Counted from the stretch's first letter, positions 21,938-62,553 are shown. The stretch is DNA of 64,000 bases from a virus (IMGVR_UViG_2541047759_000001), one strand, 5' to 3'. The notes: generated by a model not told the origin, from the sequence alone. Made by a program: numbers and translations.

Positions 21938-22120
21938 CGCGGGTTTTCGCTATTTATGAAAATTTTCCGGGAACCATGTCCGGTTTCTCTTCAAGTTAAC
22001 TATATGAAAAATAAAAAAAGAGGTCTTCTGTGAACCGGGCATGCACAAAAAATAGACATGTAAGCCGGACATGACCGGTTTTGTTGTGATTGTGAAGTGA
22101 GAGTTTTTGCGAGGTGAGGA

Positions 22121-24530: not shown

Positions 24531-24720
24531 ACTGCAGGCGCTGCGTCAGGCGCGCCTTGATTTATTAACCGGTAAACGGGTGGTGTCTGTCCAGAAAGAT
24601 GGACGAAGAATTGAATATACGGCGGCCTCTCTGGATGAGCTTAACCGGGCGATCAATGATGCGGAGTTGGTACTGGGGACAACCCGCCGTCGCCGTCGTC
24701 CGCTGGGAGTGAGGTTATGA
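24514..24720 (+). CDS. W: Head-tail joining protein W
   Basis: 68 aa; 'LTGKRVVSVQKDGRRIEYTAASL' matches lambda gpW. Confidence 0.8.
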   Translation: MVTVAELQALRQARLDLLTGKRVVSVQKDGRRIEYTAASLDELNRAINDAELVLGTTRRRRRPLGVRL

Positions 24721-26309: not shown

Positions 26310-27804
26310 TCTTTCACACATTATTGCAGCAGCATTCAATGAACCGCTGCTTCTGGAGCCCGCCTATGCGCGGGTTTTCTTTTGCGCGCTCGGGCGCGAG
26401 ATGGGGGCAGCAAGTCTTTCGGTACCACAACAGCAGGTACAGCTTGATGCACCCGGAATGCTGGCTGAAACGGACGAGTACATGGCCGGAGGTAAACGAC
26501 CGGCCCGTGTTTACCGGGTGGTGAACGGTATTGCGGTACTGCCGGTGACCGGCACGCTGGTGCACCGGCTGGGGGGGATGCGGCCATTTTCCGGAATGAC
26601 TGGCTATGACGGCATTGTCGCCTGTCTTCAGCAGGCAATGGCAGATAGCCAGGTGCGGGGCATACTGCTGGACATTGACAGTCCGGGCGGGCAGGCCGCC
26701 GGCGCGTTTGACTGCGCTGACATGATTTACCGCCTCCGGCAGCAGAAGCCGGTCTGGGCACTGTGTAATGACACGGCCTGTTCTGCAGCCATGCTGCTGG
26801 CGTCGGCCTGCTCCCGACGGCTGGTTACCCAGACATCCCGTATCGGCTCCATTGGCGTGATGATGAGCCATGTCAGCTATGCCGGTCATCTGGCGCAGGC
26901 CGGTGTGGATATCACGCTGATTTATGCCGGGGCGCACAAGGTGGATGGCAATCAGTTTGAAGCGTTGCCGGCAGAGGTTCGCCAGGACATGCAGCAGCGG
27001 ATTGATGCGGCGCGCCGGATGTTTGCCGAAAAAGTGGCGATGTATACCGGTCTGTCTGTTGATGCCGTCACGGGAACAGAGGCTGCCGTTTTTGAAGGTC
27101 AGTCCGGCATTGAGGCCGGGCTGGCGGATGAATTAATCAATGCGTCGGATGCCATCAGTGTGATGGCCACGGCGCTGAACAGTAATGTCAGAGGAGGCAC
27201 TATGCCGCAATTAACTGCAACGGAAGCCGCCGTGCAGGAGAACCAGCGAGTGATGGGGATCCTGACATGCCAGGAAGCGAAAGGACGTGAACAGCTTGCC
27301 ACGATGCTGGCAGGGCAACAGGGCATGAGCGTTGAACAGGCCCGGGCGATTCTGGCCGCGGCGGCACCGCAGCAGCCGGTGGCATCCGCACAGAGTGAAG
27401 CCGATCGCATTATGGCGTGTGAAGAAGCGAACGGTCGTGAACAACTGGCAGCAACGCTGGCGGCGATGCCGGAGATGACGGTGGAAAAAGCCCGCCCGAT
27501 CCTGGCTGCTTCACCGCAGGCGAATGCCGGGCCCTCACTTCGTGATCAGATCATGGCACTGGATGAGGCAAAAGGGGCTGAGGCGCAGGCTGAACAGCTG
27601 GCTGCCTGCCCGGGAATGACTGTGGAGAGCGCCCGGGCTGTGCTGGCTGCGGGATCAGGTAAGGCAGAACCGGTCTCTGCATCCACAACCGCCCTGTTTG
27701 AACATTTCATGGCGAACCATTCACCGGCTGCGGTCCAGGGGGGCGTGTCACAGGCGTCAGAAGACGGTGATGCGGACGTGAAAATGCTCATGGCCATGCC
27801 ATGA
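26299..27804 (+). CDS. C: Head maturation protease/scaffold, lambda C-like, with three tandem repeats in the C-terminal domain
   Basis: S49-type protease core 'VLPVTGTLVHRLGG...DSPGG'; three roughly 40-aa repeats of 'IMAxxEAKGxEQLAxxLAxxxGMxVEQARAILAA'. Confidence 0.8.
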   Translation: MRRNLSHIIAAAFNEPLLLEPAYARVFFCALGREMGAASLSVPQQQVQLDAPGMLAETDEYMAGGKRPARVYRVVNGIAVLPVTGTLVHRLGGMRPFSGMTGYDGIVACLQQAMADSQVRGILLDIDSPGGQAAGAFDCADMIYRLRQQKPVWALCNDTACSAAMLLASACSRRLVTQTSRIGSIGVMMSHVSYAGHLAQAGVDITLIYAGAHKVDGNQFEALPAEVRQDMQQRIDAARRMFAEKVAMYTGLSVDAVTGTEAAVFEGQSGIEAGLADELINASDAISVMATALNSNVRGGTMPQLTATEAAVQENQRVMGILTCQEAKGREQLATMLAGQQGMSVEQARAILAAAAPQQPVASAQSEADRIMACEEANGREQLAATLAAMPEMTVEKARPILAASPQANAGPSLRDQIMALDEAKGAEAQAEQLAACPGMTVESARAVLAAGSGKAEPVSASTTALFEHFMANHSPAAVQGGVSQASEDGDADVKMLMAMP

Positions 27805-27840
27805 AGTCAGTGCTGAACATCAATACGAGGTTTTAACAAT

Positions 27841-28188
27841 ATGGTGACGAAAACCATCACTGAACAGCGTGCGGAAGTACGTATTTTTGCCGGTAATGAT
27901 CCGGCTCACACCGCCACAGGCAGCAGCGGGATTTCCTCGGCAACACCGGCACTGACACCCCTGATGCTGGATGGGGCCACCGGGAAACTGGTGGTCTGGG
28001 ACGGACAGAAAGCCGGTAGTGCGGTTGGCATACTGGTACTGCCGCTTGAAGGCACAGAGGCGGTGCTGACGTATTACAAGTCGGGGACCTTTGCGACGGA
28101 GGCAATCCGCTGGCCTGAAAGTGTGGATGAACACAAAAAGGCCAACGCCTTTACCGGCAGTGCCCTGAGTCACGCGGCGCTGCCGTAA
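27841..28188 (+). CDS. D: Head decoration protein, lambda D-like
   Basis: 'GNDPAHTATGSSGISSATPALTPLMLD...KLVVWDG' matches lambda gpD. Confidence 0.85.
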   Translation: MVTKTITEQRAEVRIFAGNDPAHTATGSSGISSATPALTPLMLDGATGKLVVWDGQKAGSAVGILVLPLEGTEAVLTYYKSGTFATEAIRWPESVDEHKKANAFTGSALSHAALP

Positions 28189-28245
28189 CACGTTATCAGG
28201 CCACCGCGTTGGCCTGACTGATTTCTTAATGAAAGGAACTGATTT

Positions 28246-29274
28246 ATGGGATTGTTTACGACCCGCCAGTTACTCGGTTATACCGAACAAAAAGTTAAAT
28301 TCCGTGCGCTGTTTCTGGAGCTGTTTTTCCGCCGCACGGTGAATTTCCACACCGAAGAGGTGATGCTGGACAAAATTACCGGAAAAACGCCGGTGGCGGC
28401 CTATGTCTCCCCGATCGTTGAAGGAAAAGTGCTTCGCCATCGCGGTGGTGAAACCCGCGTGTTACGTCCGGGCTACGTCAAGCCCAAACACGAATTTAAT
28501 TACCAGCAGGCGGTTGAGCTCCTTCCTGGTGAAGATCCGGCTCAGCTGAACGACCCGGCCTACCGTCGTCTGCGTATCATTACCGATAACCTCAAACAGG
28601 AAGAGCACGCCATTGTCCAGGTGGAAGAAATGCAGGCGGTGAATGCCGTGCTGTATGGCAAATACACCATGGAAGGGGATCAGTTTGATACTGTCGAGGT
28701 GGATTTCGGGCGCTCTGAAGGAAATAACATTGAGCAGGCTGACGGTAAAAAATGGTCTGAGCAGGACCGTGATACGTTTGATCCGACGCATGATATTGAC
28801 CTCTACTGCGATCAGGCCAGCGGCCTTGTGAATATCGCCATTATGGACGGTACGGTCTGGCGTCTGCTGAATGGCTTTAAGCTGTTCCGCGAAAAACTGG
28901 ATACCCGTCGCGGCTCAAATTCACAACTCGAAACGGCAGTGAAAGACCTGGGGGCGGTGGTGTCCTTCAAGGGGTATTACGGCGATCTGGCCATTGTGGT
29001 GGCGAAAACGTCTTATGTGGCAGAGGACGGTACCGAAAAACGTTATCTGCCGGAGGGCACACTGGTCCTGGGGAATACGGCAGCAGAGGGCATTCGTTGC
29101 TATGGTGCCATTCAGGATGCGCAGGCGTTGTCCGAAGGTGTGGTGGCCTCTTCCCGTTATCCGAAACACTGGCTGACTGTGGGCGATCCGGCCCGTGAAT
29201 TCACCATGACGCAGTCCGCACCGCTGATGGTGCTGCCGGATCCGGATGAGTTTGTGGTGGTACAGGTGAAATAA
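28246..29274 (+). CDS. E: Major capsid protein, lambda E-like
   Basis: Strong similarity to lambda gpE across the length, e.g. 'YVSPIVEGKVLRHRGGETRVLRPGYVKPKHE', 'DPAREFTMTQSAPLMVLPDPDEFV'. Confidence 0.9.
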   Translation: MGLFTTRQLLGYTEQKVKFRALFLELFFRRTVNFHTEEVMLDKITGKTPVAAYVSPIVEGKVLRHRGGETRVLRPGYVKPKHEFNYQQAVELLPGEDPAQLNDPAYRRLRIITDNLKQEEHAIVQVEEMQAVNAVLYGKYTMEGDQFDTVEVDFGRSEGNNIEQADGKKWSEQDRDTFDPTHDIDLYCDQASGLVNIAIMDGTVWRLLNGFKLFREKLDTRRGSNSQLETAVKDLGAVVSFKGYYGDLAIVVAKTSYVAEDGTEKRYLPEGTLVLGNTAAEGIRCYGAIQDAQALSEGVVASSRYPKHWLTVGDPAREFTMTQSAPLMVLPDPDEFVVVQVK

Positions 29275-51284: not shown

Positions 51285-51315
51285 GTGCAACGATCGGTGT
51301 AGTTAATGGTGTAGT
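51285..51315. repeat. attL direct repeat GTGCAACGATCGGTGTAGTTAATGGTGTAGT
   Basis: Identical 31-bp copy at 62437-62467; sits 26 bp upstream of the integrase gene. Confidence 0.8.
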
Positions 51316-51341
51316 TAATTGTGATGACCGGAATCAAAATT

Positions 51342-52571
51342 ATGAGCAGAGCACTTAACAAACTGAGCGATACACAGCTGAGGAAAATCAACGGCACACC
51401 CGCCCAAAAAACAGCCTTTCTTAATGACGGTGGAAACCTGAGCGTCAGGCATTCAACCAGTGGCCTTTTAACCTGGTATTTCACTTACAGGGCCGGAACG
51501 GGAAGGGGGGCACCACCGGAACGCATTAAGCTGGGAAATTATCCTGATCTGAGCCTGAAATCAGCCAGGGAAAAAGCCGCCCAGTGTCGCGCATGGCTGG
51601 CAGAGGGGAAAAATCCACGTCATGAAATGAATTACACCGTACAGGAAGCGTTAAAGCCGGTAACGGTTGGCGATGCGCTCACCTACTGGCTTGAGTCGTA
51701 CGCAAAGGAAAACCGCGTGGATTATGCCGCCCTGAAAAAGCGCCTTAATAATCACGTAATACAGCACATTGGTGCTATGCCGCTGGATAAATGCGAGCTA
51801 CGGCACTGGCTGGCCTGTTTTGACCAGGTGGCAAAGCGAACGCCTGTTACTGCCGGATTCTTGCTACAGACGTGCAAACAGGCGCTTAAGTTCTGCCGGA
51901 GGCGGCGCTATGCAATCAGCAACGTTCTTGATGATATGAGTGTGGCGGACGTTGGGAAAAAACCGGATATAAGCGAGCGCGTCTTAAGCACCAAAGAACT
52001 TGGCGAATTATTGCAGGCACTGGACAAAAAAATATTTTCCCCTTACTACGTCGCACTAATCCGCCTCCTGATTGTTTTCGGATGCCGGACGGTAGAACTG
52101 AGGTTATCGGAGATCAGCGAGTGGGATTTTACCGAAATGCTCTGGACCGTGCCGAAAGAACACAGCAAAACGAAGGTGGCAATATTCCGGCCCATACCGG
52201 AAGCAATACTGCCGTTCGTCACGCAGCTGGTGGAGCAGAACAGGCACACGGGCTTATTGCTGGGGGAAGTGAAACAGGAAACAAGCGTGTCGCAGTACGG
52301 CAGATTAGCGCACAGGAGGCTAAAACACCCTCACTGGTCACTGCATGACATCCGGCGCACCTTTACAACGATGCTGAACGATTTAGGCGTGGATCCTCAC
52401 GTCGTGGAGCAGCTTACAGGTCATCAGATGCCAGGGATGCAACGAGTCTATAACCATTCCCGTTATCTGGATGCGAAACGTGACGCGCTGGATATGTGGA
52501 CGGAGCGGTTAGGGATACTGGCGGGAACACATGAAAACGTAACCACATTGCCAATAGCCAGAGAAATATAA
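51342..52571 (+). CDS. int: Tyrosine integrase, P4-like family
   Basis: 409 aa; C-terminal 'HDIRRTF...GHQ...RVYNHSRY' catalytic region; adjacent to attL. Confidence 0.88.
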   Translation: MSRALNKLSDTQLRKINGTPAQKTAFLNDGGNLSVRHSTSGLLTWYFTYRAGTGRGAPPERIKLGNYPDLSLKSAREKAAQCRAWLAEGKNPRHEMNYTVQEALKPVTVGDALTYWLESYAKENRVDYAALKKRLNNHVIQHIGAMPLDKCELRHWLACFDQVAKRTPVTAGFLLQTCKQALKFCRRRRYAISNVLDDMSVADVGKKPDISERVLSTKELGELLQALDKKIFSPYYVALIRLLIVFGCRTVELRLSEISEWDFTEMLWTVPKEHSKTKVAIFRPIPEAILPFVTQLVEQNRHTGLLLGEVKQETSVSQYGRLAHRRLKHPHWSLHDIRRTFTTMLNDLGVDPHVVEQLTGHQMPGMQRVYNHSRYLDAKRDALDMWTERLGILAGTHENVTTLPIAREI

Positions 52572-52936
52572 TTTTTTTTGCGATTTTTCAGGATGCGGAC
52601 AACGTGAAACAACGAGACACAACGACGAACAACAAGGAACAAAATGGAACAACGGGTTAAAAATCAGCCATCGTAATAACCATTTGATTTTTATAGGTGT
52701 ACTGTTTTTTTATACACTGGCGAATCACTCTTAAAAATATGTAAAAAAGGCGTAAAAGTAAAATTTTATGCCTTTGCATCATAATGAATTAAAAGAGTTT
52801 TTATTCTCATTTCCCCTGCTTCTGTAAAACGACCGCCGCCAGTGTTTGCCATTCCACAAACACCCTGACACAATCCGACACAACCCAACCCAATAATCCA
52901 CCCAATGACTCTTTAAGAAACAACAAAGGGGGAATT

Positions 52937-53125
52937 GTGTTAAGCACAGATCGCTTTATACGTGAAAAAGAATGTCAGCAACTTACAGGCCTGAGCCGCT
53001 CATGTCGGTACCGCCTGGAAAAAGCCGGACAATTCCCATCACGGCGTAAGCTGGGCGGTCGTTTCGTTGGCTGGTCTTTATCCGAAGTTCTGGCATGGAA
53101 GGACAGCTGCGAGGCAGTTCACTAA
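52937..53125 (+). CDS. alpA: AlpA-family transcriptional regulator
   Basis: 62 aa; 'IREKECQQLTGLSRSCRYRLEKAGQFPSRRKLGGR...GWSLSEVLAW' typical of AlpA. Confidence 0.85.
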   Translation: MLSTDRFIREKECQQLTGLSRSCRYRLEKAGQFPSRRKLGGRFVGWSLSEVLAWKDSCEAVH

Positions 53126-53542
53126 TCAGGCTGGCGGCACACAGCCGCCACCCATCCACTAATACAGAGATCTAACCATGAATACTGGATATTCTCCCGA
53201 ACAAGGGCGGGGCTTCGTTCGTCCTGAAAAACAGAATCTGCAAAATTTTGCCGAAATTATTCCGGTTATTTCCGGCCTTACTGGCGGGAGTGAAACCAAT
53301 ATTGTTAACGCCAGAGCGTTGCAGATGTTTGATGATAAAAAGGGAGTAAATTTAACTTACACCCCTGACGGCAATCAGAATATGAGCATTATCTCTGAGT
53401 CAGGTTTCTACAAACTAATAAAAACAAAAAGCGCCCCGTTGCCGGAGCGCCTTTGTGAACAATTAACCTACTGCGCAAAAAATGAATCTGAGCAGTGGGA
53501 TTATATCAACCATGTGGAGAAGCGCCACAATTGCCGAATAAC

Positions 53543-53574
53543 GGGCAAAACAAAGGCCACCCGCTACGGTGGCC
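53543..53574 (-). terminator. Minus-strand intrinsic terminator ending the divergent regulator operon
   Basis: GGCCACC...GGTGGCC hairpin followed on the minus strand by TTTGTTTTGCCC. Confidence 0.6.
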
Positions 53575-53653
53575 CCTCGACACAAGCTACACGTTATCCC
53601 CAACGCATGAGCATTGCCAACAATGCCACATTTGCGGCTGGTGGGCAATGCAA

Positions 53654-53842
53654 TCAGTCAGGTTCAGTTCGTTGCCATACCTGCAATGAGCGCTTTTCCC
53701 TGTACTCTTTAAGGAATTGCTCAAGGGCAAAAGCACATGGCGCGAATCTTTCTGATTCATGCTCTATCTTTCTGCGCCGTCTTTTCCGTGCCGGTGATAA
53801 TGTTTTGGTCAATTCTTTATCGGTCATTGTGTTGTCCTGCAT
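53654..53842 (-). CDS. Small basic hypothetical protein
   Basis: 62-aa ORF downstream of the RHH gene on the minus strand; 'ARKRRRRK' basic patch. Confidence 0.4.
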   Translation of the reverse strand: MQDNTMTDKELTKTLSPARKRRRRKIEHESERFAPCAFALEQFLKEYREKRSLQVWQRTEPD

Positions 53843-53884
53843 AGCAATGCGCCGTAGTTACTCACACCACGGCGCTGGTGATGG

Positions 53885-54064
53885 TTACTCCTGCTCTTTG
53901 GCCTTGCGGCGCTGGCGGCGTTTGATCTCGCCTTGCATTGACGCAATGATGAATTGTGATGTGCTTTCGCCTGATTCTTTCACTGATTCCATGGCGTTTA
54001 CTATTTCGTGTGGTACACGAGCCTTTAGAGCTTGTGATTTTGCGTTTGTTGTACCCGTTGCCAT
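53885..54064 (-). CDS. Ribbon-helix-helix (Arc/CopG-like) DNA-binding protein
   Basis: 59 aa; 'LKARVPHEIVNAMESVKESGESTSQFIIASM' fits the RHH pattern; divergent from the rightward promoter. Confidence 0.6.
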   Translation of the reverse strand: MATGTTNAKSQALKARVPHEIVNAMESVKESGESTSQFIIASMQGEIKRRQRRKAKEQE

Positions 54065-54125
54065 TTCTATTCCTCTGTTGGATTGGTGGGGGACAGTATA
54101 CACAGAAAAAGCACAAATAAAACCC

Positions 54126-54166
54126 TTGACGTGGGCCACACCTAAAGCATATAGTGGGCCACACCT
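54126..54166 (+). promoter_or_regulatory. Rightward promoter with two GTGGGCCACACCT operator-like direct repeats
   Basis: TTGACG at 54126-54131, 18-bp spacer, TATAGT at 54150-54155; 13-bp repeats at 54131-54143 and 54154-54166. Confidence 0.55.
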
Positions 54167-54263
54167 TGAGATTATCAAGGTGCATAAATGCAAAGCCCCG
54201 CAAGTGTCGTTACCACTCGCAGGGCTTCTAACCACCAACGATAGCGAAAGTATCGAGGTAGCT

Positions 54264-54464
54264 ATGTTAAATCATACCACACACCCGCAAGGGCGGGACT
54301 CGCACAACCTGAATAAATACATCTGGCGTTTTATCGCCCTGAGCACGGCACAACCGCGCGTGATTACCATTGAGGCCACCAGCGAACAGGAAGCACGCCA
54401 GCAATCTCCGGCTGGCTGCGTGATGGTATTTGCTGCCCGTATTCGTCAGGGGGTAGGCTTATGA
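54264..54464 (+). CDS. Small hypothetical protein, first gene of the rightward satellite operon
   Basis: GAGGTAG RBS 5 nt upstream of ATG at 54264; 66 aa. Confidence 0.5.
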   Translation: MLNHTTHPQGRDSHNLNKYIWRFIALSTAQPRVITIEATSEQEARQQSPAGCVMVFAARIRQGVGL

Positions 54465-54691
54465 GCCAGGAAATCACACTACAACAGGCAGCAGAACGCG
54501 CCCACCAAATCGAAGTTATTTGCGCACTGGCAGAGGATTACCCTGGCATGATGACCGACAGCGAATCAGGGGCAATCATCGGCTTACTTAAACGCCTTAG
54601 CGGTGAGGTCTGCGTATTCCTGAGCGATGAACAGGAAAGAAGAACGCTTATTTCTAACGAAAAAAAATGCGGAGGGGTACATGTGCAATAA
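54461..54691 (+). CDS. Small hypothetical protein
   Basis: 76-aa ORF, start overlapping the upstream stop. Confidence 0.5.
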   Translation: MSQEITLQQAAERAHQIEVICALAEDYPGMMTDSESGAIIGLLKRLSGEVCVFLSDEQERRTLISNEKKCGGVHVQ

Positions 54692-55115
54692 AACCACACC
54701 GGACGCAGCCGCCGCCGCACTCACTACGCTGATGCACGCGCTTATTGATATTGAATGCACGGCAGAGCTTGCGCAGGGAGAAGAACAGAAAGACCGGACA
54801 CAGTTCGCCCTGGAATGTATCCGATACATCGCAACGCGGTCGCTGAATGACGCTAAAAATATTCTTGTTGCTGATTGTGAAAATGGGGGGGTTATGCGTG
54901 ATGATCGTTTTAATTCCCTGAAACAGGAATTTTCCGGCGTTCCTGATGATGCGGCTGATGCGCTTTCGTCAATGCCAGAGCTTATTAGAGCGGATTTTTT
55001 CTTACTTTCCACGAGAGAATATAAATCAACGGGGCTTGATGTACTGAATATCGCCGCCGATTATGCTGATTTCGTGACAGAGGTTATTTTAAGAAAAACG
55101 ACGGACGGGGATTAA
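54681..55115 (+). CDS. Hypothetical protein
   Basis: GGAGGGG RBS before ATG at 54681; 144 aa. Confidence 0.55.
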   Translation: MCNKTTPDAAAAALTTLMHALIDIECTAELAQGEEQKDRTQFALECIRYIATRSLNDAKNILVADCENGGVMRDDRFNSLKQEFSGVPDDAADALSSMPELIRADFFLLSTREYKSTGLDVLNIAADYADFVTEVILRKTTDGD

Positions 55116-55116
55116 T

Positions 55117-55350
55117 ATGCGTGATATTTACCACGAAACAATAGACCGCGCATTTCTTGCACTTTCTCACAGTGAAAATATGTTGGAAATATTGCGCATA
55201 TGTCTTGAAACGCTTGGAGATAATGAACGTGATAAACAGAAATCAAGGATTGTCACGGCATTAATAACGCTTCTTGAGCCTGTAATAAATGAGTTGCAGG
55301 AAATAGAGACATTACACGACCAGTATAAAGCGCCCCACACCGGAGAATAA
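55117..55350 (+). CDS. Small hypothetical protein
   Basis: 77-aa ORF starting 2 nt after the upstream stop. Confidence 0.5.
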   Translation: MRDIYHETIDRAFLALSHSENMLEILRICLETLGDNERDKQKSRIVTALITLLEPVINELQEIETLHDQYKAPHTGE

Positions 55351-55355
55351 AAATA

Positions 55356-55655
55356 ATGAAACTTAAATATTCTGGCTTAACTGCCAGTGGCAAAACTCGC
55401 ACTAAATTCATGCGCGGTGATATTTACCGCGATAAGTACGGCGGCACGGTAATGATTAAGGGCGTGGAGGAACGGCGCGTAACCTACCGTCGTGAAGGCT
55501 ACGAATATGATTGCGTGATGCCTGTTTATCAGTTCGACCGTGATTTTTCTCTTGTGCAGGCCGTACCGCGTAACGTGCCCACCAGCAGGGAGAAAGCACG
55601 CGCCAATATTCAGAAGATGAAAACCATGATTAAAGGATTCAGGGGTAAAAAATGA
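55356..55655 (+). CDS. Small basic hypothetical protein
   Basis: 99-aa ORF overlapping the primase start. Confidence 0.5.
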   Translation: MKLKYSGLTASGKTRTKFMRGDIYRDKYGGTVMIKGVEERRVTYRREGYEYDCVMPVYQFDRDFSLVQAVPRNVPTSREKARANIQKMKTMIKGFRGKK

Positions 55656-57406
55656 AACTGGCACCGAACGTAAAACAGCAGTCACGCGGCATAAAACACA
55701 AAGGAACAGAAGTCATTATTTTTGCGGGTAGTGATGCCTGGGCACACGCGAAACAATGGCAGGAACATGATGCGCGTATGGCCGGAGATAATGAGCCTCC
55801 TGTGTGGCTTGGGGAGCAGCAGTTATCAGAACTGGATAAGCTGCAAATTGTGCCGGAAGGCAGAAAATCCGTGCGCATATTCAGGGCCGGATATCTTGCG
55901 CCAGTAATGATAAAGGCGATTGGCCAGAAGCTGGCGGCGGCAGGCGTACAGGATGCAAATTTTTACCCTGATGGTATGCACGGTCAGAAGGTGGAGAACT
56001 GGCGCGAATATCTGGCCCGTGAGCGCCAGAATCTTTCTGATGGTCTGGTCATTGAGCTTCCGGTAAAGCAAAAGGCGCAACTTTCGCAGATGGCGGACAG
56101 TGAGCGCGCGCAGCTGCTTGCCGATCGCTTTGATGGCGTTTGCGTACATCCTGAAAGTGAAATCGTTCACGTATGGCGCGGCGGGGTATGGTGTCCGGTC
56201 AGCACAATGGAACTTAGCCGCGAAATGGTGGCGATCTATTCAGAGCACAGGGCCACTTTCAGCAAGCGCGTAATCAATAACGCCGTGGAAGCGTTAAAAG
56301 TTATTGCCGAACCAATGGGCGAGCCGTCCGGCGATTTGCTGCCGTTCGCCAATGGTGCGCTTGACCTGAAAACGGGGGGATTTTCCCCGCACACGCCGGA
56401 GAACTGGATCACCACGCACAACGGCATTGAGTACACGCCACCAGCACCAGGGGAGAACATCCGCGATAACGCGCCAAACTTTCATAAATGGCTTGAGCAC
56501 GCAGCCGGAAAAGACCCGCGCAAGATGATGCGTATATGTGCCGCGCTGTACATGATTATGGCGAACCGGTACGACTGGCAGATGTTTATTGAGGCCACCG
56601 GAGACGGCGGGAGCGGTAAAAGTACATTCACGCACATAGCCAGCCTTCTGGCAGGGAAACAGAACACGGTAAGCGCTGAAATGACATCGCTTGATGATGC
56701 TGGTGGACGTGCGCAGGTTGTCGGGAGTCGTCTTATCGTCCTGGCTGACCAGCCGAAATATACAGGCGAAGGAACGGGCATCAAGAAAATCACGGGCGGT
56801 GACCCCGTGGAAATTAACCCGAAATACGAAAAGCGTTTCACGGCTGTAATCAGGGCGGTGGTGCTGGCGACCAACAATAACCCGATGATATTCACCGAAC
56901 GGGCCGGAGGTGTGGCACGTCGTCGCGTGATTTTCCGTTTCGACAATATCGTCAGTGAGGCCGAAAAAGACAGGGAGCTACCGGAAAAGATCGCGGCTGA
57001 AATCCCTGTCATTATCCGCCGATTGCTGGCGAACTTTACCGACCCTGAGAAGGCACGGGCTTTACTACTGGAACAGCGTGACGGTGATGAAGCACTGGCA
57101 ATAAAGCAACAGACGGATCCGGTTATTGAGTTTTGCCAGTTCCTGAATTTTCTGGAGGAAGCGCGCGGCCTGATGATGGGGGGCGGTGGCGATTCAGTGA
57201 AGTACACGACCAGGAACAGCCTTTACCGCGTCTATCTGGCGTTTATGGCATACGCAGGCAGGAGCAAACCGCTAAACGTAAATGACTTTGGAAAGGCTAT
57301 GAAGCCTGCCGCAAAAGTTTACGGACATGAATATATTACGCGGAAAGTTAAGGGGGTAACGCAGACTAACGCAATAACAACAGACGAGTGCGACGCGTTT
57401 TTATAA
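55652..57406 (+). CDS. Primase-helicase (P4 alpha / D5-type, P-loop NTPase)
   Basis: 584 aa; Walker A 'GDGGSGKST'; N-terminal primase-like region; followed by the iteron origin. Confidence 0.85.
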   Translation: MKLAPNVKQQSRGIKHKGTEVIIFAGSDAWAHAKQWQEHDARMAGDNEPPVWLGEQQLSELDKLQIVPEGRKSVRIFRAGYLAPVMIKAIGQKLAAAGVQDANFYPDGMHGQKVENWREYLARERQNLSDGLVIELPVKQKAQLSQMADSERAQLLADRFDGVCVHPESEIVHVWRGGVWCPVSTMELSREMVAIYSEHRATFSKRVINNAVEALKVIAEPMGEPSGDLLPFANGALDLKTGGFSPHTPENWITTHNGIEYTPPAPGENIRDNAPNFHKWLEHAAGKDPRKMMRICAALYMIMANRYDWQMFIEATGDGGSGKSTFTHIASLLAGKQNTVSAEMTSLDDAGGRAQVVGSRLIVLADQPKYTGEGTGIKKITGGDPVEINPKYEKRFTAVIRAVVLATNNNPMIFTERAGGVARRRVIFRFDNIVSEAEKDRELPEKIAAEIPVIIRRLLANFTDPEKARALLLEQRDGDEALAIKQQTDPVIEFCQFLNFLEEARGLMMGGGGDSVKYTTRNSLYRVYLAFMAYAGRSKPLNVNDFGKAMKPAAKVYGHEYITRKVKGVTQTNAITTDECDAFL

Positions 57407-57419
57407 TTTTTTGTAATTG

Positions 57420-57650
57420 CTGTCTACCCTGTCTACCTGAGTAAAGAAAAATACATTTAATTCAGTGCATTAAGTTAGGTAGATAGCCTTTTTTTACTGT
57501 CTACCCACTATCTACCCTCTCTACCTGATTTTACCTGAATCAGACAGGGAGGTAGACACGGGGTAGATAGTGGATAAAAGCACTCTACCCCGCTGAAAGC
57601 CGCGCCATTACTGGCATGAGGGCCACTAAGGTAGATAAGGTAGACAAGGG
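57420..57650. repeat. Satellite origin of replication: about 11 copies of the GGTAGA(C/T) iteron in both orientations
   Basis: Copies of GTCTACC / GGTAGAC / GGTAGAT immediately downstream of the primase-helicase gene. Confidence 0.75.
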
Positions 57651-57694
57651 GAGGCACAACTCAAAACTTTTTAAACGAGGGGGTAAAAATAAAT

Positions 57695-57973
57695 ATGCAC
57701 ACTTCAGGGAAATTTAATAAATCACTCAAAAAACGCAGAGACAGAACAGAACCGAAATATCGCGCGTTAGACATGACAGAGCACGCTTTAAAGGTGGCAA
57801 TCAGAACGATAGACCGCCACGCGGGGGAAGGATACGCGAAAGCACATCCCGAACTGATAAGCGCATTCATGACCACGACGGCGGCAAATTTTGCCACGCT
57901 GACAGAGCGGGAGATTGCCGAAGCGGAACAGGTAACAACCATCAACGTTAAAACCGGAGAGGTGGAATCATGA
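57695..57973 (+). CDS. Hypothetical protein
   Basis: GAGGGGG RBS upstream; 92 aa. Confidence 0.45.
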   Translation: MHTSGKFNKSLKKRRDRTEPKYRALDMTEHALKVAIRTIDRHAGEGYAKAHPELISAFMTTTAANFATLTEREIAEAEQVTTINVKTGEVES

Positions 57974-58392
57974 CAGCACAGATAGCAGCTTACGGGCGGC
58001 TGGTGGACGACCCGCAGGTAAAACAGACCAGCAAGGGCACACCGATGACGCTGGCGCGTATGGCGGTCCCCCTTCCGTGCAGCCAGGCAGATGACGGAAC
58101 GGCGACGATGTGGTTATCCGTCCTGGCATTTGGCAGACAGGCCGAAGCACTGGAAAGGCACCGCAAGGGTGAACTCCTGAGCGTGGCGGGTAACATGCAG
58201 ATCAGCCAGTGGACTGGGCAGAACGGAGAAACGCGGCAGGGCTGGCAGGTTATCGCAGACAGTGTAATCAGTGCGCGAACGGCGCGACTGGGCGGCAAAA
58301 AAGGTCAACAGGGCCAGGCTACTGACGCGCTGAACAGGGCAAAACAACAGGCGGGGAATGATGATCCGTACGGGGATAACATACCGTTTTAA
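57970..58392 (+). CDS. ssb: Single-stranded DNA-binding protein
   Basis: OB-fold N-terminus, Gly/Gln-rich linker, acidic C-terminal tip 'DDPYGDNIPF'. Confidence 0.85.
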   Translation: MTAQIAAYGRLVDDPQVKQTSKGTPMTLARMAVPLPCSQADDGTATMWLSVLAFGRQAEALERHRKGELLSVAGNMQISQWTGQNGETRQGWQVIADSVISARTARLGGKKGQQGQATDALNRAKQQAGNDDPYGDNIPF

Positions 58393-58408
58393 GCGACGAG
58401 AGACAGAA

Positions 58409-58430
58409 GCCGGAGCAATCCGGCTTTTTT
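58409..58430 (+). terminator. Intrinsic terminator after ssb
   Basis: GCCGGAGCAATCCGGC hairpin followed by TTTTTT. Confidence 0.75.
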
Positions 58431-58807
58431 ACGGGGCCTCCTGGCGGGGTGGGCCTGAACACGGGGCGGGAAGCGCGGAAAAAAGCGCATTTTTGTGATT
58501 TTATCGTCATCATCATCATGAGCGTAATTTATTGTTTTTAATTGTTTTGATGCAAAAAAGATGATGGTTGTGGTTAATTTTTGTTCGACATCTTTGCAGG
58601 CAGATAAAAAAGCCCGATAAGGTCAGAGGTGGCTTATCGGGCTTTTGCATATGAGGCTTTTTGGTGCACTGACACACATGATCGGGATAATCATTTCATA
58701 ATTTGCAACACAACTCAATATCATTGCACAAAATGCAATCCTGATTATAATCAGAGCTGGATGAACATCCAGTTATGATTTTTTAAGTCAAAGAGGAATT
58801 TCTTACT

Positions 58808-59014
58808 ATGGCTGAAGAGAAAAAAGGCGGTATTTCGGTGTACATAAGCCCCGACATCGTGAAGGCGCTCAAGGAACGCCACCAGCAGAACGTAAAAGCA
58901 GGCATTGCGGCAGGACTTGATCCGCTGGCGATGGTTGAGCCGTCAACAGGCTGGCAGGTACGCGCCTATTTACGCGCGGCGCTGGGTATGAATCAGGTTC
59001 ACGGGGGTGAATAA
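58808..59014 (+). CDS. Small hypothetical protein preceding the satellite capsid gene
   Basis: AAGAGGAA RBS; 68 aa; stop overlaps the capsid gene start. Confidence 0.5.
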   Translation: MAEEKKGGISVYISPDIVKALKERHQQNVKAGIAAGLDPLAMVEPSTGWQVRAYLRAALGMNQVHGGE

Positions 59015-60069
59015 TGACAGTAAAAGCAATGGCACTTAACACTAACCAGCTTTTTGCGTACCTGAATCGCGGGGATATTGCGGAATTTAAATTCAGTCCG
59101 CTGTTTACCACGCTGTTTTTCCCGAACGTGGCGACATTCAGCACGCAAAACATCATGCTGGATACCCTGGACATTGAAGAAGTCACCATGTCGGCGTTTT
59201 GTTCGCCTATGGTGGGTAGCCAGGTTCAGCGCGATAAAGGGTACGAAACCAGCACGATTAAACCTGGCTACATGAAGCCAAAGCACGAAATCGATCCAAC
59301 GAAAACCATCATGCGCATGGCTGGAGAAGATCCGGCACAGCTTAACGACCCTACCTATCGCCGTATGCGCCTGATTACTGGCAATATGCGCCGCCAGATA
59401 AACGCCATAAAAGCGCGCGTGGAATGGCTGGCGGTAAATGCGGTAACGACCGGAAAAAACATCATTGAAGGCGAAGGCATAGAGCGCTATGAAATCGACT
59501 GGAAGATACCGGAAAAAAACATCATAGAGCAGGCCGACGGGAAAAAATGGTCAGAGCAGGACAAAGAAACCCACGATCCAATCTATGATATCGAACTATA
59601 CGCCGATCAGGCTGGTTGCCCCGCAAACGTCATGATTATGGGCGCTGAGGTATGGCGAACGTTACGCAGCTTTAAAAAATTCCGTGAGCTGTACGATCTT
59701 TCCCGTGGTTCAGAGTCCGCCGCAGAGCTGGCCTGTAAAAACCTGGGCGAAGTGGTGAGCTTTAAAGGCTATCTGGGCGATATTGCCCTTATCGTCTATT
59801 CCGGCAAATACACTGACAGCGACGGCACAGAAAAATATTTCCTTGAGCCTGATTTGCTTGTCCTGGGCAACACCAACAATAAAGGGCTGGTGGCCTATGG
59901 TGCGATTATGGATCAGGACGCAGTAAGAACGGGCGCAACGCAAAACATGTTTTACCCGAAAAACTGGATTGAGGACGGCGATCCGGCGATTGAGTACGTG
60001 CAGACGCACAGCGCACCGCAGCCGGTTCCGGCAGATATTCGCAAATTTGTTACCGTCAAAATTGGTTAA
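59014..60069 (+). CDS. Major capsid protein, divergent lambda E homologue
   Basis: Shared blocks with the prophage E: 'EDPAQLNDPxYRRxRxIT', 'NIIEQADGKKWSEQD', 'VVSFKGYxGDxAxxV', 'DGTEK...LVLGNT'. Confidence 0.85.
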   Translation: MTVKAMALNTNQLFAYLNRGDIAEFKFSPLFTTLFFPNVATFSTQNIMLDTLDIEEVTMSAFCSPMVGSQVQRDKGYETSTIKPGYMKPKHEIDPTKTIMRMAGEDPAQLNDPTYRRMRLITGNMRRQINAIKARVEWLAVNAVTTGKNIIEGEGIERYEIDWKIPEKNIIEQADGKKWSEQDKETHDPIYDIELYADQAGCPANVMIMGAEVWRTLRSFKKFRELYDLSRGSESAAELACKNLGEVVSFKGYLGDIALIVYSGKYTDSDGTEKYFLEPDLLVLGNTNNKGLVAYGAIMDQDAVRTGATQNMFYPKNWIEDGDPAIEYVQTHSAPQPVPADIRKFVTVKIG

Positions 60070-60080
60070 CGGGGGATTCT

Positions 60081-60416
60081 ATGGACACTCCATACATTGA
60101 GTTATTTGCAGGCAGTCAGCAGGTCGCCACGACGCTGGTACATTTTGCCGCTGATGCTGGCGTTATTCAGGAATTTACCCCGCTGATGCTGGCGGACAAT
60201 GGCGAGTTTAAGCCGTGGGATGGTAAGGAATCTGGCAAGGCTGTTTATCTGACCTCGTACCCTGTGGACACGTCAAAGCAGAAATCAGCACAGTGTTACA
60301 AGACGGGGATATTCAATATTGCCGCCGTTAACTGGCCTGAGAGCGTCGACACCGATGCGAAAAAATGCGCCGCCTTTGCGGGTTCCGGCGTATCCGTTCA
60401 GCCGCTGGCCCGATAA
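60081..60416 (+). CDS. Head decoration protein, divergent lambda D homologue
   Basis: 111 aa immediately after the E-like gene; 'VNWPESVDTDAKKCAAFAGS' resembles the D C-terminus. Confidence 0.7.
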   Translation: MDTPYIELFAGSQQVATTLVHFAADAGVIQEFTPLMLADNGEFKPWDGKESGKAVYLTSYPVDTSKQKSAQCYKTGIFNIAAVNWPESVDTDAKKCAAFAGSGVSVQPLAR

Positions 60417-60428
60417 GCAGGGGGAACG

Positions 60429-60842
60429 ATGGCAACGAATGAAAGCATCATGACGCTACCGCTGGCGAGTAAATTTAAAGCCGAAGCGCGGGCAATGGCT
60501 GACAGAGGTTTATCAACCTATGAGGCCGTATATCAACTAAACAAACTGGAAGAGCAGGACAAGCCGCGCGCTGATGCGATTATGGCGCTTCATGAGCATA
60601 AAGACTATCAGCCGCTGTTACGTGCAATGGCAAACGTGCCATGTATTAGCGTCGATAATGCTCGTGAAATCCTGAACATGACCATAGAGCAGGAGCGCCC
60701 AAAGGTTGCACCAGAGCTTACCGCAGCCTTTGAAAACTTTATGGACATGCACAGCCCGCAAGCCGTATCAGCTGGCATGGCATACGATGGCAGAAACCAG
60801 GGCGATGACGGCGACATCGATCGCATACTGAAAACCATCTGA
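60429..60842 (+). CDS. Scaffold-like protein related to the C-terminal (Nu3-like) domain of the prophage C gene
   Basis: 'ADAIMALHEHKDYQPLLRAMANVPCISVDNAREILNM' and 'FENFMDMHSPQAV' parallel the C-protein repeats and its C-terminus. Confidence 0.6.
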   Translation: MATNESIMTLPLASKFKAEARAMADRGLSTYEAVYQLNKLEEQDKPRADAIMALHEHKDYQPLLRAMANVPCISVDNAREILNMTIEQERPKVAPELTAAFENFMDMHSPQAVSAGMAYDGRNQGDDGDIDRILKTI

Positions 60843-60848
60843 GACAAG

Positions 60849-60870
60849 GCCGGAGAAATCCGGCTTTTTT
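60849..60870 (+). terminator. Intrinsic terminator after the scaffold-like gene
   Basis: GCCGGAGAAATCCGGC hairpin followed by TTTTTT. Confidence 0.75.
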
Positions 60871-60902
60871 ACGGGTCCTTCCTGGAATTATGGCCCGTTA
60901 CG

Positions 60903-60914
60903 GGGCGGCGACCT
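60903..60914 (+). other. Satellite cos copy 1: cosN GGGCGGCGACCT with cosQ-like upstream and partial cosB
   Basis: 'GGGTCCTTCCTGG...GTTACGGGGCGGCGACCTCGCGGGTTTTCGCTATTTATGA' is near-identical to the prophage cos at 21926; no ATGTCCGG repeats downstream. Confidence 0.8.
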
Positions 60915-61003
60915 CGCGGGTTTTCGCTATTTATGACGTTTTTCCGTGAAGGTGACACCACCACCACTTGATTAATATTTAACCATGCAGTTAAGGTAAC
61001 ATT

Positions 61004-61438
61004 ATGATTGATAAAGCTTGTTTTGTAAGTCAGCAGGAAATAGCTGAACATTTCAAGGTTAACAGAACCACTATTCGCGCATGGACCAAACAGGGGATGC
61101 CGTATCTTAATGCGGATCGCGGAAAGTCTGGCGGTTATCACATCGGGCATACATTGCTTTGGTCTTCAGGTAAAAGCCGTCTTGAGGCCATCAGATATCA
61201 CGTAGAAACCAGTGCGCTGGAAAAAATTATGTTTGCCAGGCTGCTTTCATCTGAGCGTGACGAGTACTCCAGTGAAGAAACAGAACATCGATTTGATGAA
61301 GGTTTGCAGATTTACGGCTATTCACCGGAAGATGTGAGCAAGGCACGAAATAAAATGGCTGGCTTTCTGGCTGGGTGGCGTCATGCCGTAAGCGTTCGCC
61401 GTGCCAGCATGGAGCAATCAGCCGATACAGAACAGTAA
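61004..61438 (+). CDS. Nu1-like small terminase or packaging-redirection protein with N-terminal HTH
   Basis: AAGG RBS; 'QQEIAEHFKVNRTTIRAWTKQGMPY' parallels the lambda Nu1 N-terminal HTH; lies between two inverted cos copies. Confidence 0.6.
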   Translation: MIDKACFVSQQEIAEHFKVNRTTIRAWTKQGMPYLNADRGKSGGYHIGHTLLWSSGKSRLEAIRYHVETSALEKIMFARLLSSERDEYSSEETEHRFDEGLQIYGYSPEDVSKARNKMAGFLAGWRHAVSVRRASMEQSADTEQ

Positions 61439-61641
61439 AGCCGATAACTTGTTAATCACTCGCAGCAATGCATGTGATTTGTGCACACTTTCGGTTAACT
61501 GGTTCGATGTCCGGTTTTAGTGTCTGTTTTTTGCGCATGTCCGGTTCATGGAAAGCATGTTTTTATATTTTTCATATGGTTAACTTGCAGAGAAACCGGA
61601 CATGGATCCCGAAAAATTTTCATAAATAGTGAAAACGCGCG

Positions 61642-61653
61642 AGGTCGCCGCCC
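61642..61653 (-). other. Satellite cos copy 2, inverted: cosN plus full cosB-like region with three ATGTCCGG repeats
   Basis: Reverse complement of 61530-61690 matches the prophage cos from cosQ through 'CATGTCCGGTTTCTCT' and beyond. Confidence 0.75.
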
Positions 61654-61717
61654 CGTAACGGGCCATAATTCCAGGAAGGACCCGACGACACCAGACTATC
61701 AGAACGATGGGGGCACA

Positions 61718-61999
61718 ATGACAGAAGCCGAAATACTGCGATTAATCCGCCGCGTTGCCGGAATCAGCCAGCAGGCCGACGAACAGACCACGCAGCCGGA
61801 CAGCGTGACCGCCGAAAATTATGTTCGTGTGGTTGCTGAGGTGATTCGCCGTAATGGTATCCAGCTTAATGATGTGGATATGCGCAACATACGGATCCGC
61901 GTTCTTGAAATGCTGGCCTACAATCGCCGCGTGGCACTGTATCGGGAAACGGAGAAAATTACGTACCACTGGAAGAAGCCGGAGCGGTTGCGGCGGTAA
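61718..61999 (+). CDS. Hypothetical protein
   Basis: 93-aa ORF starting at ATG 61718 just after cos copy 2. Confidence 0.45.
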   Translation: MTEAEILRLIRRVAGISQQADEQTTQPDSVTAENYVRVVAEVIRRNGIQLNDVDMRNIRIRVLEMLAYNRRVALYRETEKITYHWKKPERLRR

Positions 62000-62170
62000 C
62001 TGGTTGATATTTTCGAAATTCGCCAGCGGCGAACATCGGGGAAACCAGCCTAACCCGTTGATATTTTCGGGAACCTCAAATTGAAGAGGTCGGAAACATA
62101 ACCCGTCATATTCTGGATGCTGATAATTACCACGCAGCCCATTAAGGCCTAACCCGTTGATTCTTCCACA
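62000..62170. repeat. Four direct repeats of about 19 bp (TAACCCGTTGATATTTTCG-like) near attR
   Basis: Copies at about 62001, 62050, 62098 and 62149; followed by palindromes at 62174-62227. Confidence 0.6.
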
Positions 62171-62436
62171 ATCCCCCATTGGGGGAGGCTGGGCGGCCTG
62201 CTGTGGGCTTTTCCACCATTGGTGGAAAGGCGCACATCTGGATCATCATTACGGTGATCAAGGGTATGTAAAACCCACCAGCCTGATTGACATTTAACCG
62301 GAAAAAAGCCAGGTAGCCCCGTTATGGGGATCCCCATATCGACATTAACGCCCCTCATGAATTGGCGCGCTTCCCCCTGGAAAGATGACCCGCCTGTATA
62401 TTTCTTGTGTCTATTTGTTCCACGTTGTTTCATACA

Positions 62437-62467
62437 GTGCAACGATCGGTGTAGTTAATGGTGTAGT
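62437..62467. repeat. attR direct repeat GTGCAACGATCGGTGTAGTTAATGGTGTAGT
   Basis: Identical to 51285-51315; weaker similarity extends about 25 bp further upstream. Confidence 0.8.
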
Positions 62468-62553
62468 CAATTTGCGATTTTTAGCACTTTTTGCAGTGCA
62501 AATCATTTAATTAAATCAATGGCTTGCCTTGATGTAGTGATAAAAGGACATAT

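What the first reader, a model, noticed from the sequence alone, without database searches (positions are those of the whole stretch)
51285..62467. Phage satellite that encodes its own lambda-type capsid, decoration and scaffold homologues plus a helper-matched cos
An 11.2 kb island bounded by 31-bp direct repeats has the Gram-negative PICI backbone (P4-family int, alpA, primase-helicase, iteron ori) but also carries divergent homologues of lambda E, D and the Nu3-like scaffold domain, a Nu1-like gene, and cos sites near-identical to the cos of the prophage 40 kb away. It lacks portal, large terminase, protease and tail genes, so it would need a lambda-like helper for those while supplying its own shell proteins. 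I cannot tell from sequence whether this exact architecture is already described; it differs from classical cos-PICIs and from capsid-forming PICIs as I understand them.
Basis: partly seen in the sequence, partly recalled or inferred. Interest (0 to 1): 0.85.

Follow-up and report, generated by a model that had tools for sequence, protein, structure and literature searches.

The report
Known E. coli phage satellite EcCICFT073
The 11.2 kb island is real, but it is a near-identical copy of EcCICFT073, the well-studied model phage satellite of E. coli; its capsid-like genes were reported in 2018 and shown to be dispensable for spread, so only their function remains an open question.

Summary
These are exact 31-bp att repeats 11,152 bp apart, int, alpA, primase-helicase and an iteron origin. 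There are also lambda E-like (Pfam 2e-52), D-like (2.5e-17) and Nu3-like proteins, and two inverted cos sites whose cosN matches that of the neighbouring prophage.

The architecture is not new. The island is 97-98% identical in DNA to EcCICFT073 of E. coli CFT073 and sits at the same roxA/phoQ site. The "Nu1-like" gene is 100% identical to RppA (c1503). The capsid homologue is c1499, whose crystal structure is PDB 3BQW. The D-like gene is c1500 and the scaffold-like gene is c1501.

Published work on the prototype shows AlpA-dependent induction and Pri/ori replication. RppA binds helper TerS and redirects it to the island cos, and the DNA is packaged in phage-sized heads. Deleting c1499 or c1500 changes neither transfer nor interference.

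The neighbouring prophage matches CFT073 prophage #2, not the proven helper #4.

The capsid trio remains unexplained. It is intact in about 11% of complete E. coli genomes and under purifying selection (E dN/dS 0.07-0.13). Every marked island tested carried its marker at c1499 or c1501. Verdict: already known, low interest.

The parts
51285..51315 (.). attL core, a 31-bp exact direct repeat
   Evidence: Identical to 62437-62467. Lies between roxA (ycfD) and int.
51342..52571 (+). Tyrosine integrase (P4-type arm-binding domain)
   Evidence: Pfam Arm-DNA-bind_3 5e-18, Phage_integrase 6e-17, phrog_1 2e-76. 99.0% aa identity to the CFT073 island integrase.
52937..53125 (+). alpA (activator/excisionase-type regulator)
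   Evidence: Pfam Phage_AlpA 3e-17. 61/62 aa identical to the CFT073 protein.
53654..54064 (-). Two small antisense genes (57 aa hypothetical; 59 aa YlcI/YnfO family)
   Evidence: RefSeq annotation of the near-identical HM670 island. phrog_21027 1e-15 and phrog_949 2e-22.
54264..55655 (+). Icd-like gene, three small ORFs of unknown function and a DUF4222 gene
   Evidence: Icd-like part phrog_6196 2e-52; DUF4222 2.5e-24.
55652..57406 (+). pri-rep primase-helicase
   Evidence: D5_N 1.5e-14, DUF5906 5e-10, Pox_D5 8e-5, phrog_864 3e-175. 99.0% aa identity to CFT073.
57420..57647 (.). Replication origin: nine CTNTCTACC iterons in two opposed sets around an AT-rich spacer
57695..58392 (+). orf92 (phrog_1231) and SSB
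   Evidence: SSB Pfam 5e-15. This segment is the most diverged from CFT073 (72-74% aa).
58409..58500 (+). Terminator-like hairpin plus a degenerate third cos-like copy
   Evidence: 31-nt repeat D5. 66/95 positions identical to 60849-60940, with cosN spoiled by two 1-nt deletions.
58808..59014 (+). orf68 of unknown function; its stop overlaps the start of the capsid gene
   Evidence: phrog_3255 2e-36. ATGA overlap at 59011-59014.
59014..60069 (+). Lambda gpE-family major capsid protein homologue (= c1499)
   Evidence: Phage_cap_E 2e-52, phrog_29 3e-109. PDB 3BQW 1.7e-238. 98.9% aa identity to AAN79968. 47% identity to the prophage E. dN/dS 0.07-0.13.
60081..60416 (+). Lambda gpD-family head decoration homologue (= c1500)
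   Evidence: HDPD 2.5e-17, phrog_49 1e-26. 100% identical to the CFT073 protein. 36% identity to the prophage D.
60429..60842 (+). Nu3-like scaffold-domain protein (= c1501, 137 aa)
   Evidence: phrog_1999 4e-65 and the C-terminal end of phrog_53 1.7e-10. 37% identity to residues 416-493 of the prophage C protein, outside its S49 domain. c1501 is 137 aa in the 2018 supplementary table.
60849..60990 (+). cos site A (cosN 60903-60914), with a cosB side unlike the phage; probably the published cos1
   Evidence: Identity to the prophage is 100% in cosN, 90% at +1..+30 and 30% at +31..+100. The assignment to cos1 is an inference from position.
61004..61438 (+). rppA (redirecting phage packaging protein; = c1503)
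   Evidence: PDB 6HLK RppC 5.3e-31. 144/144 aa identical to the CFT073 protein. c1503 = RppA in PMC6739421.
61540..61690 (-). cos site B, inverted (cosN 61642-61653), with a cosB side 86-87% identical to the neighbouring prophage; probably the published cos2
   Evidence: (I1).
61718..61999 (+). orf93 of unknown function
   Evidence: phrog_1561 2e-53. 100% identical to CFT073.
62437..62467 (.). attR core, a 31-bp exact direct repeat
   Evidence: phoQ follows on the minus strand.
21926..29274 (+). Context: cos, TerS, TerL, portal, C protease/scaffold, D and E of the neighbouring lambdoid prophage (potC/potB site, window 1-46.4 kb)
   Evidence: Counterpart of CFT073 prophage #2, with identical TerS/TerL/portal/C/D/E protein accessions in HM670 and CFT073.

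Best explanation
The island is an allele of EcCICFT073, the prototype classical (cos/Rpp-type) phage-inducible chromosomal island of E. coli, integrated at its usual site between roxA and phoQ.

The mechanism below is shown experimentally for the prototype and inferred here from 97-98% DNA identity and 99-100% identity of the key proteins:
1. A lambdoid helper switches on alpA.
2. AlpA drives integrase-mediated excision at the 31-bp att site.
3. Pri-rep fires the iteron origin and makes concatemers.
4. RppA heterodimerises with the helper's small terminase. The hybrid no longer recognises the phage cosB but does recognise the divergent cosB of the island cos next to rppA.
5. The helper's TerL, procapsids and tails therefore package island DNA. 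About four 11.15-kb units (44.6 kb) fill a phage-sized head, and helper packaging is blocked.

The E-like, D-like and Nu3-like genes are a conserved accessory module specific to this satellite lineage. It is not required for these steps. Its role is unknown. My inference is that it assembles, or co-assembles with the helper E protein, only with particular helpers or conditions.
For: Identity with the prototype:
- blastn against CFT073 gives 96.9% over 7.1 kb and 98.2% over 4.0 kb, at the same flanking genes.
- RppA and the D-like protein are 100% identical. The E-like protein is 98.9%, Pri 99.0% and Int 99.0% identical.
- The capsid homologue is AAN79968/c1499.
- The Rpp fold family is confirmed by PDB 6HLK at 5e-31.

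All backbone parts are present. There are two cos sites with exact lambda-type cosN, and the one upstream of rppA has a divergent cosB.

Published experiments on the prototype:
- AlpA/int/pri dependence, helper prophage #4, lambda and phi80 as helpers, two functional cos sites, TerS requirement and phage-sized packaged DNA (PMC6092414).
- No phenotype for the c1499 or c1500 deletions (same paper and calls).
- RppA-TerS redirection to cos1 (PMC6739421).
- The cf-PICI preprint calls EcCICFT073 a 'classical' PICI.
Against: Nothing in the sequence contradicts membership.

Caveats:
- No experiment was done on this allele.
- The SSB/orf92 segment and about 330 bp at 58275-58605 differ from CFT073, which carries perC there.
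- The resident prophage in the window has a TerS with no detectable lambda-Nu1-type DNA-binding domain in the PDB. Rpp action on that particular phage is therefore unknown.
- The strong purifying selection on the capsid homologue is not explained by the published mechanism.
Confidence: 0.93

Rival explanations
1. The island builds its own shell from its E-, D- and Nu3-like proteins. It borrows only portal, protease, terminase and tail from a lambda-like helper, giving hybrid and possibly small capsids.
For: - The trio is a matched set of shell, cognate decoration and scaffold domain. That is more than a single poison subunit would need.
- It is a distinct lineage: the nearest deposited phage capsid is only about 47% identical.
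- It is full-length in 592 of the 598 complete E. coli genomes that carry it.
- dN/dS for E is 0.07-0.13, similar to int and pri.
- Every marked prototype island that was tested carries its marker at c1499 or c1501. An island with the whole trio intact may therefore never have been examined for particle size.
Against: - Deleting c1499 or c1500 leaves transfer unchanged.
- A c1499::cat island transfers at 1e5-1e6 per ml with phage 4 and phi80.
- Packaged DNA is phage-sized with lambda, and no PICI-monomer band is seen (PMC6092414).
- The shell genes are therefore at least not necessary.
Confidence: 0.12
2. Ccm-like interference. The capsid homologue co-assembles with, or competes against, the helper's gpE to derail or resize helper capsids, as SaPIbov5 Ccm does.
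For: - There is precedent in SaPIbov5, and a proposal for PmCI172 (PMC6092414, PMC6893505).
- 47% identity to the helper-type E could allow mixed capsomers.
Against: - Deleting c1499 or c1500 does not restore lambda plaquing.
- Interference maps to rppA alone among the genes cloned (PMC6092414, PMC6739421).
- The packaged DNA is phage-sized.
Confidence: 0.08
3. The trio is a decaying leftover of a captured phage head module, or of a capsid-forming PICI ancestor, and now has no function.
For: - No phenotype has been found (PMC6092414).
- The module is bracketed by cos-like repeats in this allele, consistent with past recombination.
- The gene order E-D-scaffold is rearranged relative to lambda's C/Nu3-D-E.
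Against: - The reading frames are intact in about 11% of complete E. coli genomes.
- dN/dS is well below 1 for E and D.
- The protein folds and crystallised (PDB 3BQW).
Confidence: 0.05

Closest known systems
EcCICFT073 (E. coli CFT073 genes c1499-c1503; Fillol-Salom et al. 2018 ISME J; 2019 Mol Cell)
   Same: Same attachment site (roxA/phoQ), same gene order and 97-98% DNA identity. RppA, D-like, orf93 and Icd-like proteins are identical. E-like, Pri and Int are about 99% identical. The same two inverted cos sites are present.
   Different: - About 330 bp at 58275-58605 are replaced. There is no perC gene here. Instead there is a hairpin plus a degenerate cos-like copy.
- SSB and orf92 are only 72-74% identical.
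- The scaffold-like protein is 93% identical.
The O157:H7/O55:H7-type PICI at the same roxA/phoQ site
   Same: Same int, alpA, orf68-E-D-scaffold module (93-94% DNA identity), two cos sites and size.
   Different: It carries a terminase small subunit gene instead of rpp and a RepA-type helicase instead of the D5-type primase. Its cosB sequences differ.
Capsid-forming PICIs (cf-PICI, prototype EcCIEDL933)
   Same: The int/alpA/rep backbone and satellite-encoded capsid protein genes.
   Different: cf-PICIs encode the full set of capsid, protease, portal, head-tail connectors, HNH, TerS and TerL. They make their own small capsids and do not interfere with the helper. This island has no portal, protease, connector or TerL gene.
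SaPIbov5 Ccm (capsid-homologue size redirection in a cos SaPI)
   Same: A cos-packaged satellite that encodes a homologue of the helper's HK97-fold capsid protein.
   Different: - Ccm causes small capsids and interference. The EcCICFT073 capsid homologue showed neither with lambda.
- This island also carries cognate decoration and scaffold-domain genes.
Helper-embedded PICI 11capE (Williams lab, NAR Genom Bioinform 2023)
   Same: A Gram-negative PICI of similar size and gene order with its own lambda-E-family capsid gene and a helper-like cos region.
   Different: 11capE integrates inside the helper's capsid gene. This island sits at a chromosomal site separate from both lambdoid prophages.
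Satellite P4
   Same: P4-type integrase, AlpA-like regulator, primase-helicase, helper-type cos and an Icd-like gene.
   Different: No Sid, Psu or Delta homologues were found among the island ORFs. The helper is a lambdoid phage rather than a P2-like phage.

Membership tests
Classical Gram-negative PICI (EcCICFT073 type) | Tyrosine integrase at one end and a specific att site duplicated as direct repeats | tested here: met
   31-bp exact repeats 11,152 bp apart. Integrase domains found.
Classical Gram-negative PICI (EcCICFT073 type) | alpA regulator downstream of int, with genes mostly unidirectional | tested here: met
   Phage_AlpA 3e-17. Gene map.
Classical Gram-negative PICI (EcCICFT073 type) | pri-rep gene followed by an iteron-type origin | tested here: met
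   D5_N/DUF5906/Pox_D5 domains and phrog_864. Nine iterons directly downstream.
Classical Gram-negative PICI (EcCICFT073 type) | Size of about 10-15 kb, with no lysis, tail, portal or large-terminase genes | tested here: met
   11.15 kb. All ORFs were scanned with Pfam and PHROGs.
Classical Gram-negative PICI (EcCICFT073 type) | Helper-type cos site(s) and an Rpp protein that redirects helper TerS | tested here: met
   Two exact cosN sites. Rpp matches PDB 6HLK at 5e-31 and is 100% identical to RppA.
Classical Gram-negative PICI (EcCICFT073 type) | Helper-dependent induction, replication, high-frequency transfer and interference | not testable with these tools
   Shown for the 97-98% identical prototype (PMC6092414, PMC6739421). 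Not tested on this allele.
Capsid-forming PICI (cf-PICI) | Encodes the complete head and packaging set: capsid, protease, portal, head-tail connectors, TerS, TerL and HNH | tested here: not met
   Only E-, D- and Nu3-like genes are present. No portal, protease, connector, TerL or HNH hits. Definition taken.
P4-like satellites | Sid/Psu/Delta capsid-size and transactivation genes, and a P2-type helper | tested here: not met
   No such family hits among the island ORFs. cosN is lambda-type.
Ccm-type capsid size redirection (SaPIbov5) | A satellite-encoded capsid homologue that yields satellite-sized capsids and blocks the helper | not testable with these tools
   A homologue is present. For the prototype with lambda, the published result is negative: DNA is phage-sized and the deletions give no relief of interference.

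The most novel reading that the evidence does not exclude
The conserved E/D/Nu3-like trio is a working shell module whose activity has been missed. Every marked EcCICFT073 derivative used so far carries its marker at c1499 or c1501. With the trio intact and the right helper, the island could build satellite-specific capsids on the helper's portal, possibly small ones. A possible helper is the potB-type prophage, whose cosB matches the island's second cos site. This would be an intermediate between classical PICIs and capsid-forming PICIs. It would also explain why the island keeps two cos sites.
Probability: 0.15. Interest if true: 0.6.

Novelty: already known. Interest (0 to 1): 0.15.

Why it matters
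As filed, it matters little. The island is the textbook Gram-negative PICI, and its capsid and decoration genes, two cos sites and Rpp mechanism are all published.

What is left is a narrow but real open question. A matched set of capsid, decoration and scaffold-domain genes is kept intact under purifying selection in about one in nine complete E. coli genomes. Yet no phenotype has been found for it. Resolving that would show whether classical PICIs and capsid-forming PICIs are ends of a continuum.

Tried and rejected
- I looked for the prototype island in CFT073 at 1.395-1.475 Mb. That region held only the icd prophage and core genes. The island was found at 1.378-1.389 Mb.
- I considered that the 'Nu1-like' gene is a small terminase. 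I rejected this because the Pfam Phage_Nu1 hit is below threshold and covers the HTH only, while the match to Rpp is 5e-31 and the protein is 100% identical to RppA.
- I considered that the neighbouring prophage is the demonstrated helper. I rejected this because it matches CFT073 prophage #2, whose deletion had no effect on transfer, and not the icd prophage #4. The numbering of #2 is inferred from chromosomal order.
- I searched the literature for any later functional assignment of c1499-c1501 and found none in the held library.
- The PDB search with the prophage TerS found nothing.
- The promoter/terminator scan of 58300-62500 gave counts no higher than shuffled controls and was not used.
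- I did not run structure prediction, because a crystal structure of the capsid homologue already exists (3BQW).

Full report
**1.

- **att repeats.** The island is bounded by exact 31-bp direct repeats at 51285-51315 and 62437-62467, 11,152 bp apart. It lies between roxA (ycfD) and phoQ.
- **Backbone.** The integrase has an Arm-DNA-bind_3 domain and a catalytic domain. AlpA scores 3e-17. The primase-helicase has D5_N, DUF5906 and Pox_D5 domains (phrog_864, 3e-175). An SSB is also present.
- **Origin.** Directly after pri there are nine CTNTCTACC iterons in two opposed sets around an AT-rich spacer.
- **Capsid gene.** 59014-60069 is a full-length lambda-E-family capsid protein (Phage_cap_E, 2e-52). 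It is 47% identical to the E protein of the resident prophage.
- **Decoration gene.** 60081-60416 is a gpD-family decoration protein (2.5e-17), 36% identical to the prophage D.
- **Scaffold-like gene.** 60429-60842 aligns with the C-terminal, post-protease part of the prophage C protein: 37% identity over residues 416-493, with the S49 domain ending at 293. That is the Nu3-equivalent scaffold region.
- **cos.** The lambda cosN 12-mer occurs exactly three times in the window. One copy is in the prophage at 21926. Two are in the island in inverted orientation, at 60903 (+) and 61642 (-).
- **Missing genes.** No island ORF matches a portal, TerL, protease or tail family.

**2. What it is**

The 'Nu1-like' gene is not a terminase subunit. 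It matches RppC (PDB 6HLK) at 5e-31, against 0.08-0.2 for real small terminases.

The closest complete genome, E. coli O2:H1 HM670, differs from the island by 2 nt. More importantly, E. coli CFT073 carries the same element at the same roxA/phoQ site.

- blastn against CFT073 gives 96.9% identity over 7.1 kb and 98.2% over 4.0 kb. Only about 330 bp (58275-58605) are unmatched.
- At the protein level, Rpp, the D-like protein, orf93 and Icd-like are 100% identical. E-like is 98.9%, Pri 99.0%, Int 99.0% and the scaffold-like protein 93.4% identical.
- The CFT073 capsid homologue is AAN79968, which is c1499. Its crystal structure is PDB 3BQW, which matches the window protein at 1.7e-238.

The element is therefore an allele of EcCICFT073, the prototype Gram-negative PICI.

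**3. What is already published about it**

Fillol-Salom et al. 2018 (PMC6092414) report the following:
- Deleting either gene neither restores lambda plaquing nor changes transfer.
- A c1499::cat island transfers at 1e5 per ml from CFT073 and about 1e6 per ml with phi80.
- DNA packaged with lambda is phage-sized.
- The island has two functional cos sites.
- Transfer needs int, alpA, pri and the helper's TerS.
- Of the CFT073 prophages, only #4 is the helper.

Fillol-Salom et al. 2019 (PMC6739421) show that c1503 is RppA. It binds helper TerS, and the complex recognises the cosB of the island's cos1 instead of the phage cosB.

Other papers place the capsid gene in context:
- A 2019 review notes that EcCICFT073 encodes a capsid homologue yet uses normal-sized heads (PMC6893505).
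- The Williams lab states that capsid genes occur in 21 of 29 reference Gram-negative PICIs and are not required for transfer (PMC10111431).
- The cf-PICI preprint uses EcCICFT073 as the 'classical' comparator. It defines cf-PICIs by a full capsid/portal/protease/connector/terminase set, which this island lacks.

**4.

- The architecture is the classical one, not a departure from it.
- Supplying its own shell is at least unnecessary for transfer of the prototype.
- The prophage in the window (1 to about 46.4 kb, at potC/potB) corresponds to CFT073 prophage #2. It is 96-99.9% identical over most of its length. TerS, TerL, portal, C, D and E have identical protein accessions in HM670 and CFT073. 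That #2 is the potB prophage is inferred from chromosomal order.
- The proven helper #4 is the icd prophage. In HM670, a prophage with the same integrase begins about 7 kb beyond the right end of the window.

**5. Details that go slightly beyond the literature I could read**

- **The two cos sites differ on the cosB side.** The site upstream of rppA diverges from the prophage after about 30 nt (30% identity at +31..+100). The inverted site keeps a cosB that is 86-87% identical to the potB-type prophage. It is only about 49% identical to the icd prophage #4 in an ungapped comparison. This suggests one Rpp-dependent site and one site copied from a particular TerS/cosB lineage. It is a possible answer to the question 'why two cos sites?' raised in PMC6739421.
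- **The capsid module looks selected.**
  - The orf68-E-D-scaffold block is found in 598 of 5426 complete E. coli genomes at 90% identity or more, and is full-length in 592 of them.
  - No deposited phage has a capsid protein more than about 47% identical.
  - dN/dS values are 0.07-0.13 for E, 0.15-0.20 for D and 0.25-0.63 for the scaffold-like gene, against 0.08 for int and 0.045 for pri.
- **The tested islands were all marked within the trio.** c1501 is the 137-aa scaffold-like gene. The two marked islands used experimentally are c1501::tetA and c1499::cat. The trio may therefore never have been intact in the particle-size and transfer assays. The exact tetA insertion point is in a figure I cannot see.
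- **A third cos-like copy.** This allele has a degenerate cos-like copy at 58409-58500, so the capsid module is bracketed by cos-like repeats.

**6. Verdict**

The sequence observation is confirmed. The biological identification as a satellite is right. The claim of a distinct architecture is wrong, because this is EcCICFT073 itself.

The mechanism is AlpA induction, Pri/ori replication and RppA-TerS redirection to the island cos, followed by packaging of about four units into helper heads. It rests on published experiments with a 97-98% identical element and is inferred for this allele.

The function of the capsid trio is still open. I give about 15% to a genuine shell-building role that was masked by marker placement or by the choice of helper. 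Novelty: already known. Interest: low.

Noticed in passing
window 58409-58500 (compare 60849-60940): A third, degenerate cos-like copy follows a terminator-like hairpin just after ssb. 66 of 95 positions match the functional-looking cos upstream of rppA, but cosN is spoiled by two 1-nt deletions. The capsid module is therefore bracketed by cos-like repeats. This copy was not detected by the hairpin-motif search in the CFT073 and O157 loci.
   Followed up: partly
window 61540-61690 (-) versus 21926-22040 (+): The cosB side of the inverted island cos is 86-87% identical to that of the potB-type prophage, which corresponds to CFT073 prophage #2. It is only about 49% identical to the proven helper, the icd prophage #4. 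The rppA-proximal cos matches neither. This may explain why the island keeps two cos sites.
   Followed up: partly
window 53163-54461 (+): A stop-free frame of 433 codons runs from just after alpA to the end of the Icd-like gene, across two annotated antisense genes. It is also open in CFT073 (433 codons) and in the O157 allele (333 codons). The N-terminal part has weak Bro/Ant-like hits (about 1e-4). The C-terminal part is Icd-like (2e-52). RefSeq annotates only the last 66 codons.
   Followed up: partly
published strains (PMC6092414 Table 1) mapped to window 59014-60069 and 60429-60842: Both marked EcCICFT073 derivatives used for transfer and packaging assays carry the marker in the capsid trio: c1499::cat and c1501::tetA. 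c1501 is the 137-aa scaffold-like gene. The 'no phenotype' and 'phage-sized DNA' results may never have been obtained with all three genes intact.
   Followed up: partly
window 1-46400: A complete-looking lambdoid prophage lies between potC and potB. It is the counterpart of CFT073 prophage #2, with replaced immunity (about 5.6-6.7 kb) and lysis (about 15.4-21.9 kb) segments. The tape-measure and gpJ ORFs are intact here, but several tail genes, including these two, are annotated as frameshifted in the closest complete genome, HM670. The window therefore comes from a different strain or a cleaner assembly.
   Followed up: partly
L008 (HM670, about 7 kb beyond the right end of the window): In the nearest complete genome, an icd-integrated lambdoid prophage begins just past phoQ-phoP-purB-...-icd. 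It has the same integrase accession as the CFT073 helper prophage #4. The island would therefore sit between two lambdoid prophages.
   Followed up: no
window 57695-58605: The orf92-ssb segment and the spacer after it form the variable spot of the island. The two proteins are 72-74% identical to those of CFT073, and perC is absent. The rest of the island is 97-100% identical.
   Followed up: no
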